A program made the position numbers and the translations under genes. Below are positions 786 through 57,580 of a stretch of 64,000 nucleotides of DNA, in pieces. This DNA is from Octopus vulgaris (taxonomy: Eukaryota): positions 51,274,001 through 51,338,000 of the forward strand of contig OX597814.1 in the NCBI GenBank assembly GCA_951406725.2, in the 5' to 3' direction. Position 1 is the stretch's first letter; each line of letters starts with the position of its first letter. The notes beneath the pieces were generated by a model. The model had not been told where the DNA came from and made no database searches. It saw only the letters and a program-made list of their open reading frames with translations.

Positions 786-1420
786 CATTATAGATATTTA
801 TACTCCAGTGAAATTAAGAAATCAACTCATAAATAAATTAAACCCTTGAATCCATCAGTGCACACACGTGCACGCGCACACGCACAAACACATACACACA
901 CACACACACACTGAGTCGCATATCTATGTATGTATGTATGTATGTATGTGTCTATGTGAATAGATACACCATGATGGGGGTCAATTCATATGAAAAAAGA
1001 AAGTGAACAAAATAATATGACCACTTGCTTATCAGGAAATTTGTAAGTTCGATTAAAATTTTAATTTTTTAAAGTATCATACTTATTTATACTCCAGTGA
1101 AATTAAGAAATCAAGTCATAAATTAAGTTTCACCATTATAGGTATTTATACTCTGGTGAAATTAAGAAATCAAGTTGCAAATAAGCAAAACCCTCAAATC
1201 CATCACTACACACACACACATGCATGCACACACACACACACACACACTGTTACATATCTATGTCAGTATTTATGTATCTATGTATGTATGTATGCACACA
1301 TGTCTATGCACATAGGTACACCATGATCTATACACATGCAGATGAGGGTTGATTCATATGAAAAAGAAAGTGAACAAAATAATACGACCACTTGCTTAAT
1401 GGGAAATTTGTAAGTTCGAT
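786..1420. repeat. Local tandem duplication (~350-bp unit x2 plus a partial copy) containing CA/TATG microsatellites
   Basis: tttatactccagtgaaattaagaaatcaa recurs near 797, 1086 and 1145; gaaagtgaacaaaataata...ggaaatttgtaagttcgat recurs near 1000 and 1366. Confidence 0.85.
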
Positions 1421-2103
1421 TTTAAAAAATTGTTTTTTTCTTAAAAGATAATCAAACCAAATGTTCAGCATTTTGAGCCACTCACCCAATGAGTATTTCT
1501 GCCAAATGTAGTGAAAATCTATTCAGCTATTTTCCAGTAATTTTGCAAACAGACTAAGATGAGTGCTTACAATACCCTGCTTTCGCTTACACACGCAGGG
1601 TAATGCAAAGTCATTTCCCATTTATATACACAACAAAGTTGGCTGGTTTTCTCTTTTGCTGTTATGTCAGATAATAAAGGACTATACCATGTGGTGAAAT
1701 GTGCAAGATCTGCCAAACCTATACCAGCATTGATGAGTGGATGTAGGATGACAGCTACCAGCATTTCTTATCAGACTCTCCCCCCTCTCTCTCTCTCTCT
1801 TCTAGTTACATATCATTCTCTCTTATTCAAACTCCCCATCCTCTGCCCATCTCTTGTTCCACACTCTCCAATATTTTCACTCTCACACTTCAGCCTCTCT
1901 CTTCTACCCTCTATGTCTCATTTCTCTCCCAACAACTGCTTATAGCATTCTTATAGCATTCTATAACTGACTTTAACAATGTAGTTTGTGACTGAGAGCC
2001 TTCACAAGGAAGCTGTAGACACCACAAGCTGCAGTGAAGGCAGTCTGTTTAGAAGAGCCATAATTCTGATTAAAAGAGGCCATCAACACTTGAGAAGCTG
2101 TCA

Positions 2104-2240
2104 AGTGATGGTGGCCTCTTTAGTGATGATGGCACTCTAGTGATAGTGGCCTCTCTCATGATGATGACAGCCTCTAAAGTGATGGTGGCCTCTTTAGTGA
2201 TGATGACACTCTAGTGATTGTGGCCTCTCTTGTGATGATG
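2104..2240. repeat. Minisatellite of degenerate gtgatg(g/a)tggcctct units
   Basis: Repeated ~17-19-bp subunits forming two ~74-bp higher-order copies. Confidence 0.75.
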
Positions 2241-3523
2241 TTATAATAAAACACTAAAAATAACTGATTTAATAGAAATACTAATCACAGAGAAAACAGT
2301 GATCCTAAGTAAATGCCCAAAGTTTGATATAGCTGTAGGTTTCCAGAACATAAAATCATTACACCCATATCTACAATGCACTGCTATGAATACATAAACT
2401 TAGACTCTAACCATATGAAGGAGAATTCTGCAAACCACTTGCAGTGAAGGAATTCTTTAAGAACAAAGTAAAAAAATAATGCCAAGGCCTGTTAAGAACA
2501 ATGAAGTTTAACCACTCACCAACCTGAGAGCCAGAGAGACATCCATCTTTAACCCACTAAGGAACAAGAATTGTATATACTTGCCATCAGACAGAGCTGG
2601 TGGAGGTTGAAGAATTATGTGTGCATGATAAAATACCTTCAAGAAGGCAGCCCTGTCCTACCTATTACAGAATGGTATACACACCTAATGTCATAGTACC
2701 ACTGTGAACGGAATGGGAAACCATTGCAACAGTCTTACAGAAGAGCATATCCAGAAGTATGCAACTCAGGATGTACAAATACAAAAGTTTTCTACTATAC
2801 AATTGCTCTGTACCATGATTCTATTAACTAATAAAAACCCACAAAGATAGCATTGATATAAGATCATCTAAGGTATACTAAATCATTGCCAGCACCAAGC
2901 CTTCAACAAAGCTCAGTACAAAGTTATTTACGAACTAAGGTTATCTTATTTATATTTAACTATCTATATATTTATCTGTCTATCTAGATACGTGTTAATA
3001 TACTATTTAACAATCTCTATCAACGTCACCTTCTTTCCTTGTATTTATCAATCTAATTTGACAATATGGATGAACATTTAAACCTATTGAAAAACTTAAC
3101 AACTGCACACCCAGCAACAAGGTACAGTTCAAGGCAATTTGCTAAGGTTATTAGTTATTTCACTTGAATTTAACTTTCTATCTATCTATAGATATATCTT
3201 TCTATCTTTCTACCATTTTATCTGTTGATATATCTTTCTATCCAGCTGTCTTCTCTGATAACATGATTAAGCATTACGATGGATAACAACAATTAACTCT
3301 TACTGTTACACTTGTCTGTCACACTTTTTGACAATATAACATTTAAAAGCATTTACCTGCACGTGCTATATTCACAGTAAAGGAAATAAGAATCAAGTGA
3401 CCTTTTAGTTGAAAAGCTGCTATTTTATTTCTCTAATTATTACTCGTAATTGTCATTAAGTATCAAGCTAAACATTTTGCCAACCATCTAAAGACAAAAG
3501 ATATATGTATATTTTTAACATAC

Positions 3524-3653
3524 CTGAACAAACAAAGTGCTCGCAGAGCTCTGCAGCTTGAGAGCACCACAGCAGCATTGCTTTGGTGACTCTGCATTAT
3601 CCCTAAGATTTGCTGATAGGTGTTCTTTAGCATAAAAAGATCTGAAACGTGAT
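3524..3653 (-). CDS. LRRK2: LRRK2-like ARM exon ((D)HVSDLFMLKNTYQQILGIMQSHQSNAAVVLSSCRALRALCLF)
   Basis: tttattttcattaccAG acceptor, GTATGT donor, phase 1 to 2. Resembles my recollection of human LRRK2 'KGIHLNVLELMQKHIHSPEVAESGCKML'. Confidence 0.8.
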
Positions 3654-5117
3654 CTGGTAATGAAAATAAATGAATTACTGTATAAGAGAGTTGTTAAATA
3701 TTGATACATGCATTTTTCATTTGAAAACTTTTATGGATTTTAACAATTTATCGTAATTTTGATTGCTTTTTTTTAAGGACATTTTTAGTTTGAAATTTAA
3801 TGTTATAAAATATACTGTGTAAATTGATTTGTGAATGAGTGGAGACAAAATAGGGTTGAAAGGATACTTTAGTCTTGTTGAGGGTATGACACTCTTTCTA
3901 ATGTAGGTGCCATGATAGAATACACCCAGTATACTCTATAAAATGGTTTGTGACAGGAAGGGCATCCAAACATAGAAGCCAAGCCAAAAATGAAACAGAC
4001 AAGCAAAATGTATTTCTCTGACCTGACCAGGAGGACAGAAACTATGAATAAGGACAGAGCTAGATAGTAACAATACATCCAACCCATTTCAGCATAGAAA
4101 GCAGACACAAAATGATATTTTAATGTGTAAAAATCAGAAGAAAAGAATCCTGGAATTGTATTTAAACTCAATAAATATAAATAAGAAAATAATTTTTACT
4201 ATTTCAATCAATTTGATTTTGAGGTTTTTCTTATTGAATTTTGGAATTTTATTTTTAATTTCAGTATTTTAAATGCCTTCATTTTGATTTTTGCTTCCAA
4301 ATTTTTGCTTATACTATTTTTAGATATATCAATTTAAAACTTTAAAAAAATTACAAAAACAAAATAGAAAAATACATACCAAAAAATACCTTTGAAATAA
4401 AAATGTAATATGATTAGCTAGCTGCAATATTTGGCACATTTGGTTAATCTAGATGTGTTATGGCCTCTCATGTTTAATGTTGCACTATTTTAATGTTAAA
4501 TCATGTATGGACACGTATTACTCTTCATGCCAAAACTAAGTGCCAATAAGACCATTGGCTTCATCATAATCATCATCGCTTAACATTCACCTTCCATGTT
4601 GGCATAGATTGTGCAATAACTAAAATTGATCCCCTCTTTACCAAAAGGGTCCTGTTTCTGTTTAAACTTGTTAATGTAGCCATAATTGAACTGTATGCTC
4701 TATAGAACAGGAGATAAGCTACAGGTGAACTGAGACTGTGATATAGTTTTTGATTCCAGATTGAAGCCATTTTGACTCACATTATGATTGGAAAAGTCAT
4801 TAACCTCACAATATTTCAAATTCTGACTCCTCTAAAGAAACTGCTATATTTATGGTTATCATTTGGAATAAAATTTGATTTTCCATGATGATAAATGATT
4901 TCTCCAAATGTTCTTCCAGTGGATGTTACATAATTACTTCAAATGTCCAAGTGGATATTCATACAAAATGTCTTTAAATGTCTATCAAAGTGAACATATA
5001 ACAAAATTTCCATGATTATACCACTTATCTGCATATATAATTATACAGACACACACATTTCTACAAAAATATACATATATGTATAATATTTCTCAGTCAA
5101 AATAAATAGAGTCTTAC

Positions 5118-21739: not shown

Positions 21740-22843
21740 CTGCAGAAAAAAGCATTAGTCAAATACAGGACATAATAAGAGATTACATGACAAGAAATTA
21801 CATAATGAACTTCATCAGCTTACAGCTGTTTTTGCTATAAGATGCAATGCACTCATAATTGAGTGTTATGTATCACTTTATAGCTTCTTCAAAGAGCTTA
21901 AAAAAAGAAAGAAAGTAATGTGGTGGAGACTACATAAGACAAATGGGATAGAATGACAGTACACTGCCAACAGATAAGAGATCCCAGGATCATAAAAATA
22001 CCTATGAATAAACACCTAGGTCTTTGCTCAACAAACAAATTTCCTAAAAACAAAATTTTCCCTCTATATCAATGCATCAGGAACACCTCAGCTCATTTCC
22101 AATGAAGCAAAGAAAATATATTTATTAATAAATCTAAACCAAATCTAAATACACTATAACCCAACTACAAATAACTAGAAACAACAAAATTAATAAAAGT
22201 AAATCAAGAATTAAGGTAACAGTCTTCTTCAAGGATTCAAGACCCTAACTTCAAATCCCTGTGTACTGACACATTACACTTTTTGATACTATGTGTTGAT
22301 GTCAGCCTAGAATTGACCAATTAGAAATTCCATAATTCAAAGCATTTAAGGAAATATTTGAAAGTGGTAATGATAGGATAGGCCCAACAGTGTACTGCAG
22401 AGCATATCTCTGTTTATGCTTGAAAGTTTATGGGGGTATCACTGGTTTATTGACATTCATGTATTAACTTGACATTGACCAGGTGCTCTATCAAGACTTC
22501 TTTTTCAATTTTTCCAGCTAAGTGGACTGCAGCAGCATGAAGTAAAATATCTCTTTACTTCATACAAGGAGACAGGGCACTTAGGATCAAGAGCGGGATT
22601 GCTTAATAACTAGGCCATGCACTTTCTTAAAGAAATATTAACATGATTTTAAATCAAAAAACAAAAAAAATTTTGCGCATGCATGGCTGTGTGCTAAGAA
22701 GCTTGCTTACCAACTGCATGGATCTAGATTGTGTGGCACCTTAGGCTAGTGTCCTTTACTATAGTCTCACGCTGGCCAAAGCTTTGTTGGTGGATTTGGT
22801 AGATGAAACTGAAAGAGGCCTGTTGTATATATATTGTGTGTGG

Positions 22844-22879
<36 letters not shown>

Positions 22880-22880
<1 letters not shown>

Positions 22881-23372
22881 TTCTATCTGTCTGTCTGTCC
22901 TGCACCACTGCATGACAACCAGTGTTTGGGTGTTTACATCCCCATAACTTAAAAGGTTTAATAAAAGAGATCAATAAAATAAGTATGCGGCTAAAAATAT
23001 AAGATCAGGGGTCAATTAGTTTAACTAAAACCCTTCAAGGTGGTGCCCCAGCATGGCCACCGTAAAATGATTGATACAAGTAAAAGATAAAAGATTTGAG
23101 TACAATACTTTCATTAAACTAATTAATAAATCAGGTTATGTAACATGTGAATAAAATAGTAACAAATTTAAATCTGTCACGAGTTATACTAGCAGAACAA
23201 GTGGGAAGAAATTAGGATCAACAGAAAATAAATAATAATAGAAAAAAATACCCAAAATAAATATACATCCTACACACCTGCTAAATTTATATTTATGCAA
23301 TAGGTGTATACATTCTACTCATCTCTCTCTAACTCATACATAAATGCATGCACACACACACACACACACACA

Positions 23373-23411
<39 letters not shown>

Positions 23412-24011
23412 CCTCCCTCTCTCTCACACACACCAGAGAGAGTTAGATATGTATAAAGATATCATTTATGTATTATGCTTTACTTGTTACAGTTATTAGA
23501 ATGCATCCAAATTCAGGCACCACCTTAAAGAATTTTATTATTTTTCTGTAAAGTCCAGTACTTATTCAATTGGTCTCTTTTGCCAAACCATTAGGTTACA
23601 GGGACATAAACACACCAACACCAGTTGTCAAACAGGGTTGAGGGAAAAACACAGACACAAAGAAACGCACACACACACATCTTCAGTAGACTTCTTTTAG
23701 TTTCTGTTTCCCAAATCTGCTTACAAGATGCTTACCCAAGGTGCCATACAGTAGGACTGAACCTTGAACCATGAAGTTGGGAAGCAAGCTTCTTACCACA
23801 GCCATGCCTGCACCTATGTTTATGTATATATAGAGAGATATGTATGAATGTAGGCATGACTGTGTGGTCTAGTAGCTTGTTCAATTCTACTGTAAGGCAT
23901 CTTGGGCAAGAGTATTCTACCATAATTAAAGATTAATTCTGGAATTTATTGTATGAGTGTGCATATGTATACATGTGTGAACGTGCATGTGTGTGTGTGT
24001 GTGTTTGTGCA

Positions 24012-24051
<40 letters not shown>

Positions 24052-26337
24052 TTCTATCTGTCTGTCTGTCCTGCACTACTGCATGACAACCAGTGTTTGG
24101 GCGTTTACATCCCCATAACTTAAAAGGTTTGTTAAAAGAGACCAATAAAATAAGTATGCGGCTAAAAATATAAGACCAGGGGTCAATTAGTTCAACTAAA
24201 ACCCCAGCATGGCCACCGTAAAATGATTGAGACAAGTAAAAGATAGAAGATTTGAGCACAATACTCTCATTAAACTAATTAATAAATCAGGTTACGTAAC
24301 ACGTGAATAAAATAGTAACAAATTTAAATCTGTCACGAGTTATACTAGAACAAGTGGGAAGAAATTAGGATCAACAGAAAACAAATAATAATAGAAAAAA
24401 ATGCTCAAAATAAATTACATCCTACACACCTGCTAAATTTATATTTATGTAATAGGTGTATACATTCTACTCATCTCTCTCTAACTCATACATAAATGCA
24501 TGCACACACACACACACACACACACACACTCTCTCTCTCTCTCTTTCTTCCTCCCTCTCTCTCACACACACTAGAGAGAGTTAGATATGTATAAAGATAT
24601 CATTTATGTATTATGCTTTACTTGTTACAGTTATTAGAATGCATCCAAATTCAGGCACCACCTTAAAGAATTTTATTATTTTTCTGTAAAGTCCAGTACT
24701 TATTCAATTGGTCTCTTTTGCCAAACCATTAAGTTACAGGGACATAAACACACCAACACCAGTTGTCAAACGGGGTTGAGGGAAAAACACAGACACAAAG
24801 AAACGCACACACACACATCTTCAGTAGGCTTCTTTTAGTTTCTGTTTCCCAAATCTGCTTACAAGATGCTTACCCAAGGTGCCATACAGTAGGACTGAAC
24901 CTTGAACCATGAAGTTGGGAAGCAAGCTTCTTACCACAGCCATGCCTGCACCTATGTTTATGTATATATAGATATGTATAAATGTAGGCATGACTGTGTG
25001 GTCTAGTAGCTTGTTCAATTCTACTGTAAGGCATCTTGGGCAAGAGTATTCTACCATAATTAAAGATTAATTCTGGAATTTATTGTATGAGTGTGCATAC
25101 GTATACATGTGTGAACGTGCATGTGTGTGTGTGTGTGTGTGTGTGGGTGTGTGTGTGTGTGTGTGTGCGTGTGTGTGCGCATGCGTGTGTGTGTGTGTGT
25201 GTGTGTATGTGTGTGTGTGTCTTCTATCTGTCTGTCTGTCCTGCACCACTGCATGACAACCAGTGTTTGGGCGTTTACATCCCCATAACTTAAAAGGTTT
25301 GATAAAAGAGATCAATAAAATAAGTATGCGGCTAAAAATATAAGACCAGGGGTCAATTAGTTCAACTAAAACCCTTCAAGGTGGTGCCCCAGCATGGCCA
25401 CCGTAAAATGATTGAGACAAGTAAAAGATAAAAGATTTGAGCAAAATACTCTCATTAAACCAATTAATAAATCAGGTTATGTAACACGTGAATAAAATAG
25501 TAACAAATTTAAATCTGTCACGAGTTATACTAGAACAAGTGGGAAGAAATTAGGATCAACAGAAAACAAATAATAATAGAAAAAAATGCCCAAAATAAAT
25601 ATACATCCTACATACCTGCTAAATTTATATTTATGTAATAGGTGTATACATTCTACTCATCTCTCTCTAACTCATACATAAATGCATGCACACACACACA
25701 CACACACACACACACTCTCTCTCTCTCTCTCTCTCTCTTTCTTCCTCCCTCTCTCTCACACACACTAGAGAGAGTTAGATATGTATAAATATATCATTTA
25801 TGTATTATGCTTTACTTGTTACAGTTATTAGAATGCATCCAAATTCAGGCACCACCTTAAAGAATTTTATTATTTTTCTGTAAAGTCCAGTACTTATTCA
25901 ATTGGTCTCTTTTGCCAAACCATTAAGTTACAGGGACATAAACACACCAACACCAGTTGTCAAACGGGGTTGAGGGAAAAACACAGACACAAAGAAACGC
26001 ACACACACTCACACACACACACACACACACATCTTCAGTAGACTTCTTTTAGTTTCTGTTTCCCAAATCTGCTTACAAGATGCTTACCCAAGGTGCCATA
26101 CAGTAGGACTGAACCTTGAACCATGAAGTTGGGAAGCAAGCTTCTTACCACAGCCATGCCTGCACCTCTGTTTATGTATATATAGATAGATATGTATGAA
26201 TGTAGGCATGACTGTGGTCTAGTAGCTTGTTCAATTCTACTGTAAGGCATCTTGGGCAAGAGTATTCTACCATAATTAAAGATTAATTCTGGAATTTATT
26301 GTGTGAGTGTGCATACGTATACATGTGTGAACGTGCA

Positions 26338-26369
<32 letters not shown>

Positions 26370-26864
26370 TGCGTGTGTGTGTGTATGTGTGTGTGTGTCT
26401 TCTATCTGTCTGTCTGTCCTGCACCACTGCATGACAACCAGTGTTTGGGCGTTTACATCCCCATAACTTAAAAGGTTTGATAAAAGAGATCAATAAAATA
26501 AGCATGCGGCTAAAAATATAAGACCAGGGGTCAATTAGTTCCACTAAAACCCTTCAAGGTGGTGCCCCAGCATGGCCACCGTAAAATGATTGAGACAAGT
26601 AAAAGATAGAAGATTTGAGCACAATACTCTCATTAAACTAATTAATAAATCAGGTTATGTAACACGTGAATAAAATAGTAACAAATTTAAATCTATCACG
26701 AGTTATACTAGAACAAGTGGGAAGAAATTAGGATCAACAGAAAACAAATAATAATAGAAAAAAATGCTCAAAATAAATTACATCCTACACACCTGCTAAA
26801 TTTATATTTATGTTATAGGTGTATACATTCTACTCATCTCTCTCTAACTCATACATAAATGCAT

Positions 26865-26938
<74 letters not shown>

Positions 26939-27548
26939 CCTCCCTCTCTCTCACACACACTAGAGAGAGTTAGATATGTATAAAGATATCATTTATGTAT
27001 TATGCTTTACTTGTTACAGTTATTAGAATGCATCCAAATTCAGGCACCACCTTAAAGAATTTTATTATGTTTCTGTAAAGTCCAGTACTTATTCAATTGG
27101 TCTCTTTTGCCAAACCATTAAGTTACAGGGACATAAACACACCAACACCAGTTGTCAAACAGGGTTGAGGGAAAAACACAGACACAAAGAAACGCACACA
27201 CACACATCTTCAGTAGGCTTCTTTTAGTTTCTGTTTCCCAAATCTGCTTACAAGATGCTTACCCAAGGTGCCATACAGTAGGACTGAACCTTGAACCATG
27301 AAGTTGGGAAGCAAGCTTCTTACCACAGCCATGCCTGCACCTATGTTTATGTATATATAGAGAGATATGTATGAATGTAGGCATGACTGTGTGGTCTAGT
27401 AGCTTGTTCAATTCTACTGTAAGGCATCTTGGGCAAGAGTATTCTACCATAATTAAAGATTAATTCTGGAATTTATTATGTGAGTGTGCATACGTATACA
27501 TGTATGAACGTGCATGTGTGTGTGCGTGTGTGTGCGTGTGCGTGTGCA

Positions 27549-27600
<52 letters not shown>
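22880..27600. repeat. Tandem array of four near-identical ~1.17-kb units (SINE fragments, unique DNA, CA/CT/GT microsatellites)
   Basis: cttctatctgtctgtctgtcctgcac starts units at about 22880, 24051, 25221 and 26399. An older diverged copy spans ~19552-21200, matching ~22324-23925. Confidence 0.92.
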
Positions 27601-27607
<7 letters not shown>

Positions 27608-27736
27608 ATGTGTGTTTATGTGTGTTCTGTATTTTATCATCTATATTCTTTCTCAGAAGAAAGAGCTGGTTTGTAACAAAGATAAAAAAAAATCCATCGT
27701 TGGAATGTAGATAACAAAAGCAGAATCAAGCCCTAC

Positions 27737-54798: not shown

Positions 54799-54845
<47 letters not shown>

Positions 54846-54887
54846 CTAGTGAAGGCTGGTTTATAGGGTTACCCTGGGTTTCTCACA

Positions 54888-56260
54888 ATTAACGTCTGTC
54901 ATTCCATGCTGGCATGGGTTGGACGGTTTGCCTGATGTCTGGAGAGCCAGCGACTGCACCAGGCTCCAATCTAATCTAGCAATATTCCTACAGCTGGATG
55001 CCCTTCCTAATGCCAACCACTCCAAGAGCATAGTGGGTGCTTTTTACATGTCACAGGCACAGAAGCCAGTCAATGGGGCCTGGCATCAATCACGTTTGGA
55101 TAATGATTTTTATGTGCCACAAGCATGGGGGCCAGTCAGGGGATACTGGCATCGACCACGTTCGGATGGTGCTTTTTACATGCCACCGGCATAGGAGCCA
55201 GTCAGGGGGCACTGGCAACAACTACGATATTGGTTTTACTTGACTCAACAAGTCTTTTCAAGCATATCATATCGCCTGATGCATCAGGGGTACTTTTAAC
55301 TGGACTGGACATGCATGGCTACGATCTCACTGCATTTCATCCATGGGACTAAGCCCTTTATGGATACGAAACCAATTAGTCACTTCTTCTCAATCACAAA
55401 ATATCACCAAAGGTATTGGTCTCCTGTCATTGCCTCTGTCAGGCCCAATGTTTGAAGGTCATGTTTCACCACCTCATCCCATGTCTTCTTGGGTCTACCT
55501 CTACCACAGGTTCCACAATTAGGGAGTGGCACTTCCTCACACTACTGTCCTCATCCATACACAATACATGACCATACCAGCGCAGTCATCTCTCTTGCAC
55601 ACTATATTTGATGCTTCTTATGCCCAACTTTCCTCTCAGGGCGCTTACACTCTGTCTTGTATGCACACTGACATTACACATCCAGTGGATCATACTAGCT
55701 TCATTTCTTTTAAGCCTACACATGTCCTCAGCAGTCATGTCCAATGCTTCGTTGCCGTGTAGTATAGCAGTTCACACACATGCATCATACAGTTTACTTT
55801 TCATCCTGAGCGAGAGGCCCTTTGTTGTTGCCAACAGTGGTAGGAGCTCCCTGAACTTTGCCCAGGCTATTCTCATTGTAGCCGCTACACTCTCAGAGCA
55901 ACCACCCTCACTACAGACTTGGTCGCCTAGGTAGTGGAAGCTATTAACTACTTCTAGTTTCTCCACCTGGCATGTGATGGAATCTATTTTCTGTACATCT
56001 TCAGTGTTTATTGCCCCTGTGCATCTGCCACACACAAAAACTATTTTCCCGGTTAACCTTACTTTGATATTGCTGCACCTTTTATGTATCCATAGCTTGC
56101 ACCGGGCACATCGTATGGAGTTTCTACCCACGCCTTTTCTACAGATCGAGTAGGACCATCTACCTGAAGGGGATTGTGATTTGACAGCCTTCCTACTTAC
56201 TAAGACTTTAGTTTTCGCTAGGTTAATCCTAAGGCCCTTCGATTCTAGAAGAAGCACACT
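54888..56260 (-). mobile_element. 5'-truncated RTE LINE, interrupted at 55330-55383 by a hammerhead-repeat fragment
   Basis: ORF 55772..56257 GLRINLAKTKVL...CKLWIHKRCS...FHYLGDQVCSEGGCSESV (RT C-terminus with an inserted Cys-rich segment), followed by RTE C-terminal and 3' UTR sequence. Confidence 0.88.
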
Positions 56261-56288
56261 CTAAAGCATACAGCAGTAATGTATTTAC

Positions 56289-56881
56289 ATGCAGTTAAAT
56301 ATATGACCGGTCATAGAGTGACTAATTGGTTTCGTATCCATAAAGGGCTTAGTCCCATGGATGAAATGCAGTTAAGTTTATGTCTGGTCATAGAGTGACC
56401 AATGGTTTTGCATCTATAAAAGGCTTAGCCCCATGGACTTTATAGCCGAAGGTATAGAGTTTTTCAACTCTGGGAGGTTCAAAAAAAGTTGAAGAATGAT
56501 ATGTCTTTGGCTTTAGAGTCTGATGAGTCATCCATGGGGCTAAGCTCTTTATGGATGTGAAACCATTGGTCACTCTATGACCGAACATATACTTAACTGC
56601 ATTTCATCCATGGGGCTAAGCTCTTTATGGATGTGAAACCATTGGTCACTCTATGACCAGACATATACTTAACTGCATTTAATCCATGGGGCTAAGCCCT
56701 TCATGGATGCGAAACCATTGGTCACTCTGTAAGAATTAGCACTTCCTTCTCTAAGAATAGATTCGAAACCGAATCCAAGAATCCTCGGTCGCCATTTTTA
56801 ATCATAAATCGGTTTACGTATTTGTTTACAAACACTCTTAACCACTACAACTCTATTACCAGACATATACTTAAGTGCATT

Positions 56882-56929
<48 letters not shown>

Positions 56930-57003
56930 TTTCACATCTATAAAGGGCTTAGCCCCATGGATGACTCATCAGACTCTAAAGCCAAAGGCATATCATTCTT
57001 CAA
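56289..57003. repeat. 76-bp hammerhead-derived repeat cluster in direct and inverted orientation
   Basis: Forward copies start at 56529, 56605 and 56681; inverted copies at 56289-56437 and 56925-57003. Confidence 0.9.
56514..56577 (+). ncRNA. Type I hammerhead ribozyme motif with canonical core and GUC site
   Basis: Stem I tagagt/actcta, CTGATGA (56520-56526), stem II catccat/atggatg, GAAA (56559-56562), stem III cc/gg, GTC triplet (cut after 56571). Confidence 0.75.
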
Positions 57004-57056
57004 TTCTTTTTATAGTTTAGACTCTTTTTATAGATTAGACAGACAGACAGATAGAT

Positions 57057-57580
57057 AAGTGTGTATGTGTCTGTGTTTGCCTCCCACTACCACTTGACAA
57101 TCAGTGTTGGCGTATTCACATACCCGTAACTTAGCAGTTTGGCAAAATAGGCAATAGAATAATTAGGTTTTAAAAAATAAGTACTGGGGTTGATTTGTTT
57201 GACTAAAGTTCTTCTAGGCAGTGCCCCAGCATAGCAACAGTCGAATGACTGAAAAAAGTAAAAGATAATATATATATAATATTATCTAGAAGAATTTTAG
57301 TCGAACGAATTGACCTCAGTACTTATTTTTTTAAACCTAGTAATTATTCTATCGCCTATTTTGCCAAACTTCTAAGTTACAGAGATGTAGATACACCAAT
57401 ACTGGTTGTCAAGCAGTGGTGGGAGACAAACACGGACACACACCCTATCTGTCTGTCTAATCTATTTCTTTCAGATTCCATCCACTAAATCCACTCACAA
57501 AACTTTGATGGGCATGAGGCTATAGTAGAATACACCCAAGTTGTCACGAGTGTGGCTGAACCAGGAAGCATGTTAATTGG
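57057..57580. mobile_element. Two tRNA-SINE fragments tail to tail
   Basis: + strand 3' half at 57057-57270 and - strand copy at 57295-57580, same family as 6615-7020. Confidence 0.65.

What the first reader, a model, noticed from the sequence alone, without database searches (positions are those of the whole stretch)
55330..57003. Hammerhead-ribozyme repeat cluster: one complete GUC-site ribozyme plus tandem and inverted half-ribozymes
Seen: 56514-56577 folds by eye into a type I hammerhead (6-bp stem I, CUGAUGA, 7-bp stem II, GAAA, CC/GG stem III, GUC). Two more 76-bp-period copies follow. They keep stem II-GAAA-stem III-GUC-stem I(3') but lack CUGAUGA. Two inverted 3'-half copies lie upstream (56289-56437). 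An inverted 5'-half copy with CUGAUGA is cut off at the stem III loop by a TA tract (56925-57003). A further fragment at 55330-55383 is the reverse complement of ~56318-56370, so inverted copies bracket the RTE coding segment. Known: Penelope-like retroelements and metazoan non-LTR retrozymes carry type I hammerheads in tandem or inverted terminal repeats. Inference: this is a rearranged Penelope pLTR or a small retrozyme-like unit. One CUGAUGA strand might also pair with alternative 3' halves (I/II format), giving several cleavage sites 76 nt apart.
Basis: partly seen in the sequence, partly recalled or inferred. Interest (0 to 1): 0.75.

Follow-up and report, generated by a model that had tools for sequence, protein, structure and literature searches.

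The report
Decayed Penelope-like retrotransposon ribozyme end
This is the leftover tail end of a known kind of jumping gene, carrying one hammerhead-shaped RNA motif that is predicted to be folded shut by flanking mirror copies; its extra half-copies were found only at this one site, so it is likely an ordinary fossil rather than a new self-cutting RNA system.

Summary
The hammerhead at 56514-56577 and all listed copies are real. The 116-bp unit belongs to a dispersed family (1,242 candidates; 263 exact 22-mer hits). Longer copies lead upstream into an RT and C-terminal GIY-YIG ORF with the Hydra-clade motifs (RWK, DKT, CxCX5C, no CCHH). The locus is the family's usual two-armed insertion: a long-tailed inverted arm and a short-ended arm (29 of 30 other pairs follow this rule).

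The 76-bp junction occurs only here, and only one unit has CUGAUGA, so this is not a retrozyme. The family is decaying by CpG loss (17 of 60 copies keep an intact core).

Folding predicts that read-through RNA locks the ribozyme in 83-140-bp duplexes. Cleavage is untested. The scan has noted this class before on other DNA of this genome.

The parts
55329..55384 (+). 56-bp templated inverted copy of 56317-56372 (3' half of the ribozyme), inserted in the 3' end of an RTE-like LINE remnant in place of about 12 bases; youngest piece
   Evidence: 100% over 56 nt; RTE homology continues on both sides in L142 and L099 alignments, with AGTGA and AGT microhomologies at the two joints; bridged by a contig of run X2
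54890..56248 (-).
   Evidence: ORF remnant 55772-56260 with PHD-like Cys finger; very high depth in DNA runs
56249..56288 (-). Family 'tail' of the left arm (long 3' end), cut short at the LINE
   Evidence: more than 20 family loci align up to 56249
56289..56364 (-). Left arm unit A: 76-nt 3' half (stem II, GAAA, damaged stem III, GUC, stem I 3' strand); no CUGAUGA
   Evidence: 37 bits
56366..56478 (-). Left arm unit B: 5'-truncated pLTR with a 12-nt deletion of the CUGAUGA core and G12 changed to A
   Evidence: 57 bits
56479..56486 (.). 8-nt A-rich filler at the head-to-head junction of the two arms
   Evidence: family homology ends at 56478 and restarts at 56487
56487..56602 (+). Right arm unit 1: 5'-truncated pLTR of a Hydra-clade PLE
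   Evidence: matches query 48-163 at dozens of dispersed loci, 82-93%
56514..56577 (+). The only complete type I hammerhead; predicted cut after 56571; G10.1-U11.1 instead of G-C
   Evidence: sequence, alignment A1, pair counts, 107 bits
56603..56678 (+). Right arm unit 2: later 76-bp duplicate of unit 1's 3' part; no CUGAUGA
   Evidence: 2 differences in 75 from unit 1
56679..56727 (+). Right arm unit 3, first part: 3' half with C11.1 retained; GUC at 56721-56723
56728..56849 (+). Internally deleted solo LTR (TG...CA; intact copies about 580 bp) with 4-bp target duplication ACTC at 56724-27 and 56850-53
   Evidence: 376 candidates, 91-97%; both ends, and 4-bp TSDs at 5 of 6 other loci examined, exact in 3
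56850..56880 (+). Right arm unit 3, second part, ending at the family's short 3' end
56881..56927 (.). (TA)n target microsatellite
56926..57011 (-). Later inverted duplicate of 56481-56566, including the locus-specific A filler; has CUGAUGA, stops in the middle of the stem III palindrome
   Evidence: 94% over 86 nt; 4 differences in 79 from unit 1

Best explanation
This is a decayed, two-armed insertion of the 3' end (pLTR) of a Hydra-clade Penelope-like retrotransposon next to a TA microsatellite, carrying one complete hammerhead motif that is predicted to be locked by flanking inverted copies and likely no longer cuts. Shown: the unit's family, its linkage to RT and GIY-YIG remnants at other loci, the long-end/short-end arm layout, the locus-specific junction, the nested solo LTR and the relative divergences. 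Inferred sequence of events: (1) the element's protein nicked both strands of TA-rich DNA and reverse-transcribed one RNA from its two internal start sites, giving a long-tailed left arm and a short-ended right arm joined head to head; (2) that RNA likely already had a fresh 76-nt duplication of the ribozyme's 3' half, since both arms share the same junction; (3) DNA-level events then added the inverted 5' half, unit 2, the solo LTR and finally the 56-bp templated insert. In the active ancestor the motif likely worked like other PLE hammerheads, as a weak, dimer- or protein-assisted cutter not required for insertion.
For: Family: 1,242 candidates; 263 exact 22-mer hits, control 0. ORF linkage: L061 has RT thumb, then EN, then a unit 88% identical to the window's; L053, L101, L102 and L104 are similar; L099 is a near-complete relative with both pLTRs and an inverted upstream copy. 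Motifs RWK, DKT, YRDD, CxCX5C, CxxC-E and LLN..CxH are seen in copies and match PMC8557442 section 11; the stem III form ac(N)n-x-(N')gt matches that paper's Hydra table. Arms: 29 of 30 other head-to-head pairs have one long and one short end; 95 of 126 arms end in a dinucleotide repeat. Junction only here: 3 of 3 pattern hits, 2 candidates both local, 0 of 18 non-self loci fetched from 75 relaxed hits carry the pLTR. Age order: old units differ by 6-13 in about 75, as unrelated copies do (7-10); inverted 5' half 4/79; unit 2 2/75; insert 0/56. Decay: G8 and G12 changed in 34 of 120 cells; 17 of 60 copies keep the core, 8 of 60 with G10.1-C11.1. Locking: competent monomer fold lies 31-63 kcal/mol above the ensemble when either inverted arm is present.
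Against: The one full copy has kept all core nucleotides and a perfect stem I, as 17 of 60 family copies keep the core, so activity in a short RNA is not excluded. G-U at 10.1-11.1 need not kill cleavage: Hydra hammerheads often have U-U there, and an axolotl hammerhead with a U-U at the base of helix II still cleaves. Non-CpG core positions have diverged less (33/540) than 3' flank positions (57/540), which could be selection in master copies or ascertainment. No donor locus with the junction was found, so step 2 is not shown. Clade assignment rests on motifs read by eye; Pfam gave no hit even for an intact 717-aa relative and no tree was built. Nearest-neighbour energies ignore tertiary contacts and co-transcriptional folding.
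Confidence: 0.85

Rival explanations
1. The right arm is still a working composite ribozyme: one CUGAUGA strand uses the downstream half-copies as alternative 3' halves or as the stem III dimer partner, cutting after 56647 or 56723 in a transcript that starts at the arm junction.
For: For RNA 56500-56740 the swap with unit 3, which restores G10.1-C11.1, is the best competent fold (6.3 kcal/mol above ensemble against 11.3 for the monomer), and the unconstrained minimum-energy fold of 56480-56760 already pairs unit 1's 5' half with unit 3. The stem III palindrome allows 8 intermolecular pairs. The junction is old: a contig of organism E covers it with 4 differences in 73.
Against: It needs an RNA that excludes both inverted arms (31-139 kcal/mol penalty otherwise). 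The double-hammerhead fold with unit 2 is no better than the monomer (13.5 against 14.2; 14.4 against 11.3 with unit 3 present). A solo LTR landed in unit 3's stem I strand and was kept. PLE hammerheads are weak without protein.
Confidence: 0.08
2. The 76-nt unit is a small retrozyme monomer copied from a circular RNA.
For: Head-to-tail units with the same period on both arms; retrozymes are proposed to derive from pLTRs.
Against: Units lack CUGAUGA, are far below the 150-450 bp of animal retrozymes, are not amplified elsewhere, and unit 2 is a late duplicate of unit 1. Only 1 of 30 tail-selected copies starts within 5 nt of the cut site.
Confidence: 0.03
3. The shared 76-bp junction arose at DNA level after insertion (slippage in one arm, then conversion or fold-back copying into the other), not in the RNA template.
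For: The locus is demonstrably prone to templated inverted copying (56926-57011, 55329-55384); no donor with the junction was found; other loci show private short tandems with different junctions (L126, L012).
Against: The four old units are as diverged from each other as from unrelated copies and show no arm-to-arm homogenisation; the left arm has a tail that the right lacks, as the family rule predicts for RNA-templated arms. This changes only step 2 of the best explanation.
Confidence: 0.3

Closest known systems
Hydra clade of C-terminal EN+ Penelope-like elements, including Hydra-1_Obim (Craig et al. 2021, PMC8557442; passages, section 11, a supplement search and part 2 of 59 of the supplement read)
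   Same: RWK, DKT, CxCX5C linker, no CCHH, CxxC and CxH around E and N; canonical type I hammerhead with odd-palindrome stem III; (TA)n target; 5' truncation with inverted partner and a tail at one end.
   Different: Different hammerhead sequence from Hydra-1_Obim; longer stem II (1+7+5 pairs); tail about 60 nt rather than 30-40; a Ser/Thr/Asn/Asp-rich insert inside the endonuclease; no intact ORF among the 57-78% identical matches (longest open frame 441 aa).
PLE hammerheads (Cervera and De la Pena 2014, PMC4209133; parts 1-2 of 4 read)
   Same: Long helix II with an unpaired base near its 5' end, short palindromic helix III, mostly single dispersed motifs, sometimes two on opposite strands 100-700 bp apart.
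   Different: Here helix III has 3 pairs; G10.1-C11.1 has decayed to G-U in the one full copy.
Poseidon PAc of Anolis (Frangieh et al. 2024, PMC11167929; parts 1-2 of 4 read)
   Same: Two internal RT start sites explaining the tail; both strands nicked and extended; hammerhead cleavage not needed for insertion and no read ends at the cut site.
   Different: Different clade; the Hydra mechanism is inferred by analogy, not assayed.
Animal non-LTR retrozymes (PMC7229834, passages read; bioRxiv 10.64898/2026.07.22.740005, part 1 of 5 read, supplements closed)
   Same: Tandem units derived from a type I hammerhead region of pLTR origin.
   Different: Units are 76 nt, only one has a core, and the unit is not amplified.

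Membership tests
Hydra-clade PLE | C-terminal GIY-YIG endonuclease after RT, upstream of the pLTR | tested here: met
   Collinear RT, EN, hammerhead in L061, L053, L099, L101, L102, L104 by tblastn with a 717-aa genomic relative; GIY-YIG read by eye, no Pfam hit
Hydra-clade PLE | RWK motif and DKG changed to DKT | tested here: met
   RWK in L077, L078, L088; DKT in L068, L077, L084, L085, L088; some of these belong to a sister subfamily with a 70-80% identical pLTR
Hydra-clade PLE | CxCX5C linker; no CCHH; CxxC and CxH around conserved E and N | tested here: met
   P0001, L005 and L040-L047 translations, L099
Hydra-clade PLE | Insertion into (TA)n | tested here: met
   56881-56927 here; 95 of 126 arms end in a dinucleotide repeat within 14 nt, TA or other
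Hydra-clade PLE | Canonical type I hammerhead in the pLTR | tested here: met
   form matches the supplement table
Hydra-clade PLE | Short element (<3 kb) with a single ORF | tested here: inconclusive
   L099 coding remnant spans about 2.7 kb but is broken and interrupted
Hydra-clade PLE | RT phylogeny groups with Hydra elements | not tested
   No reference proteins were held as tool sequences; one search returned one unnamed protein
Type I hammerhead ribozyme | Core CUGANGA, GAAA, UH with three stems | tested here: met
   56514-56577; met by one unit only
Type I hammerhead ribozyme | G10.1-C11.1 pair | tested here: not met
   G-U here; G-C in 30 of 61 rows, G-U in 20, consistent with CpG decay
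Type I hammerhead ribozyme | Covariation in stems | tested here: met
   33 cells with change on both sides against 15.7 +/- 3.3 shuffled, 0/500; 88.8% paired against 32-53% slid. Mostly a few subfamily-level changes, so few independent events
Type I hammerhead ribozyme | Match to an Rfam hammerhead model | tested here: not met
   No hammerhead family listed
Type I hammerhead ribozyme | Mg2+-dependent self-cleavage | not testable with these tools
   Needs an assay
Non-LTR retrozyme | At least two consecutive units each with a complete hammerhead | tested here: not met
   One complete motif among seven pieces; criterion
Non-LTR retrozyme | Monomer of 150-450 bp, dispersed as a unit | tested here: not met
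   76 bp; junction only at this locus
Non-LTR retrozyme | Monomeric linear and circular RNA | not testable with these tools
   Only contigs of DNA runs could be laid

The most novel reading that the evidence does not exclude
The locus preserves a proto-retrozyme step: a Penelope-like RNA with a fresh duplication of its ribozyme's 3' half was copied into both arms of one insertion, and the right arm still forms a composite hammerhead in which one catalytic strand selects among three cut sites 76 nt apart, preferring the third, which restores G10.1-C11.1.
Probability: 0.07. Interest if true: 0.55.

Novelty: new member of a known kind. Interest (0 to 1): 0.2.

Why it matters
Little by itself: it is one of an estimated 900-4,000 decayed arms of an old Hydra-clade family (263 exact hits divided by the 2/30 to 9/30 retention seen in fetched loci). 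Two modest points are useful. The 29-of-30 long/short arm rule, with a tail of about 60 nt, fits two-site, two-strand priming as shown in vitro for a Poseidon element and extends it by inference to the Hydra clade. The right arm is also a ready-made natural construct for asking whether a core-less half-copy can complement a PLE hammerhead in cis.

Tried and rejected
Rfam scans gave no hammerhead. Pfam gave nothing for the PLE remnants or the intact relative and nothing for 138 of 229 filtered window ORFs scanned for a host exon, so a host gene is neither shown nor excluded. PDB sequence search was uninformative. The protein search returned one unnamed hit. The look-up of sequencing runs: no RNA holder listed; no evidence either way on expression. 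A relaxed junction pattern gave 75 hits against 12 control, which looked like an amplified unit, but 18 of 18 non-self loci fetched belong to unrelated repeats or unique DNA; 55 hits were not fetched. The GAAA...GUC in 56745-56772 looked like a second hammerhead half, but the piece is an LTR end with no CUGANGA upstream in 9 loci. Cleaved RNA as template: 1 of 30 tail-selected copies and 3 of 126 arms start within 5 nt of the cut site, no enrichment. The first arm-pair count (25 of 30) was contaminated by TA matches and was redone. Assembly artefact rejected. The search of earlier findings by sequence found no look-alike. Paper searches; the octopus+Penelope+hammerhead search listed only PMC8557442 as relevant, so I found no description of this particular family, but Repbase/Dfam and most of that paper's supplement were not seen.

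Full report
Setting. The window is G000:C1:51274001-51338000 of a 2.8-Gb animal genome, rich in microsatellites. That it is an octopus is my inference from recalled repeat content and from an earlier scan note; I did not test it.

Observation. The one complete motif is 56514-56577, with the predicted cut after 56571. Rfam has no hammerhead hit. A covariance model from genomic copies finds seven pieces at 26-107 bits, all in the cluster.

The family. Searching the genome with 56440-56760 gave 1,242 candidates, 40 scored; the dispersed matches cover 56487-56602 at 75-93%. An exact 22-mer occurs 263 times, control 0; it is retained in 2 of 30, 10 of 60 and 9 of 30 fetched copies by set, which gives a rough 900-4,000 arms. 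Walking upstream leads from the hammerhead into an endonuclease end (CxxC-E, LLN..CxH), a YIG motif, a CxCX5C linker, an RT with YRDD and N-terminal RWK and DKT motifs. These are the Hydra-clade features in PMC8557442 section 11. That paper's table lists an octopus member and hammerheads with the same odd-palindrome stem III. Single loci show RT, EN and hammerhead in order, for example L061 with a unit 88% identical to the window's; L099 is a near-complete relative with both pLTRs and an inverted upstream copy. The close relatives are broken; a separate young family with 717-aa frames, 54% identical, exists in the genome. Pfam recognises neither, and no tree was built.

The ribozyme across copies. 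Of 68 distinct full-length hits I aligned 60 plus the window copy, dropping one duplicate locus and seven rows with large indels. Pairs hold in 88.8% of cells; 33 cells change on both sides against 15.7 +/- 3.3 shuffled, 0/500. Most of that signal is three pairs that differ between subfamilies, so few events. CpG decay dominates: G8 and G12 are changed in 34 of 120 cells, against 33 of 540 at non-CpG core positions and 57 of 540 in the 3' flank; 17 of 60 copies keep the core and 8 of 60 also keep G10.1-C11.1. The window copy keeps the core and has G-U at 10.1-11.1. So the ancestor very likely had a real hammerhead and most copies have decayed.

Layout. Family arms end either about 31-40 or about 90 nt after the cut site; 29 of 30 other head-to-head pairs have one of each, and 95 of 126 arms run into a dinucleotide repeat. 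Here the left arm has the long end and the right arm the short end at (TA)n. An inverted 5'-truncated partner with a tail at one end is the standard PLE layout, and two internal RT start sites with both strands extended were shown for an Anolis element. An earlier scan note reported the same short/long rule on other DNA of this genome; I tested it independently on this family.

What is private to this locus. The tandem junction occurs three times in the genome with the tight pattern, all here; a 64-nt junction query had 2 candidates, both here; a relaxed pattern's other hits were unrelated in 18 of 18 fetched, of 75 total. Divergences order the events: left A, left B, unit 1 and unit 3 differ by 8-13 in about 75, like unrelated copies; the inverted 5' half differs from unit 1 by 4 in 79 and includes the locus-specific A filler; unit 2 differs from unit 1 by 2 in 75; the 55329-55384 insert is identical to left A. 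The counts are small, so the order of the middle events is soft. 56728-56849 has TG...CA ends, a 4-bp TSD and matches both ends of a 580-bp repeat with 376 candidates: an internally deleted solo LTR. The 56-bp insert replaces about 12 bases of the LINE's 3' end and has short microhomologies at both joints, which is the signature of templated repair (established knowledge). Because both arms share one junction but not later mutations, I infer that the RNA template already held the duplication; a DNA-level origin remains a 30% rival.

Reality and age. In DNA runs, X2 (organism A, another study) bridges the 56-bp insert with 51 and 30 letters on its sides; X1, X2 and X3 (organism B) cross the outer end of the inverted 5' half. 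X1 crosses the unit 2/3 junction exactly, and X10 (organism E) covers it with 4 differences in 73 and 30 letters on the short side, one short of the tool's bridging criterion. X1 may be the source sample. The junction is therefore probably older than the split of these organisms.

Can it cut? For 56500-56590 alone, the competent fold lies 8.4 kcal/mol above the ensemble. With units 2 and 3 added, the swap with unit 3 is best (6.3, monomer 11.3, double hammerhead 14.4). With either inverted arm present, all competent folds lie 31 kcal/mol or more above the ensemble, because 83-140-bp duplexes form. These energies ignore tertiary contacts and kinetics. PLE hammerheads are weak as monomers and one needed its protein. 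Expression could not be assessed.

Verdict. An old Hydra-clade pLTR insertion with local rearrangements: new member of a known kind, interest 0.2. The composite-ribozyme reading is not excluded (0.07) and is cheap to test.

Noticed in passing
window 54844-54887 (-): By eye, the 3' half of another Hydra-type hammerhead (GAAA, 3-pair stem III, GUA) ending in the (TA)n at 54802-54843; resembles the L019:1395-1476 hit.
   Followed up: no
window 56724-56727: The solo LTR's target duplication begins exactly one base after unit 3's GUC; probably coincidence.
   Followed up: no
L159 3285-3350 (G000:C11:8424300-8428600): A young Hydra family with many near-identical 717-aa open frames carries a hammerhead-like motif whose core reads CCGAAGA instead of CUGANGA.
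   Followed up: partly
L036, L045, L052, L053, L099 endonuclease region: The old family has a 100-150-aa Ser/Thr/Asn/Asp-rich insert between the two halves of the GIY-YIG motif; the young family lacks it.
   Followed up: no
L112, L115 near 1500-1760: Other copies of the solo LTR carry internal fold-back inversions of their 5' end.
   Followed up: no
L088 and L089 (G000:C7, 318 kb apart): Identical copies of a near-complete old element with flanks; recent segmental duplication or assembly duplication.
   Followed up: no
window 22760-27630: About 1.17-kb period repeats with CA/CT and TG microsatellites, four or more copies.
   Followed up: no
window 57063-57443: Nested inverted repeats (103 nt at 84%, 60 nt at 85%) of a common high-copy repeat directly right of the cluster; an 18-bp tandem at 57005-57040 marks the outer end of the inverted 5' half.
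   Followed up: no
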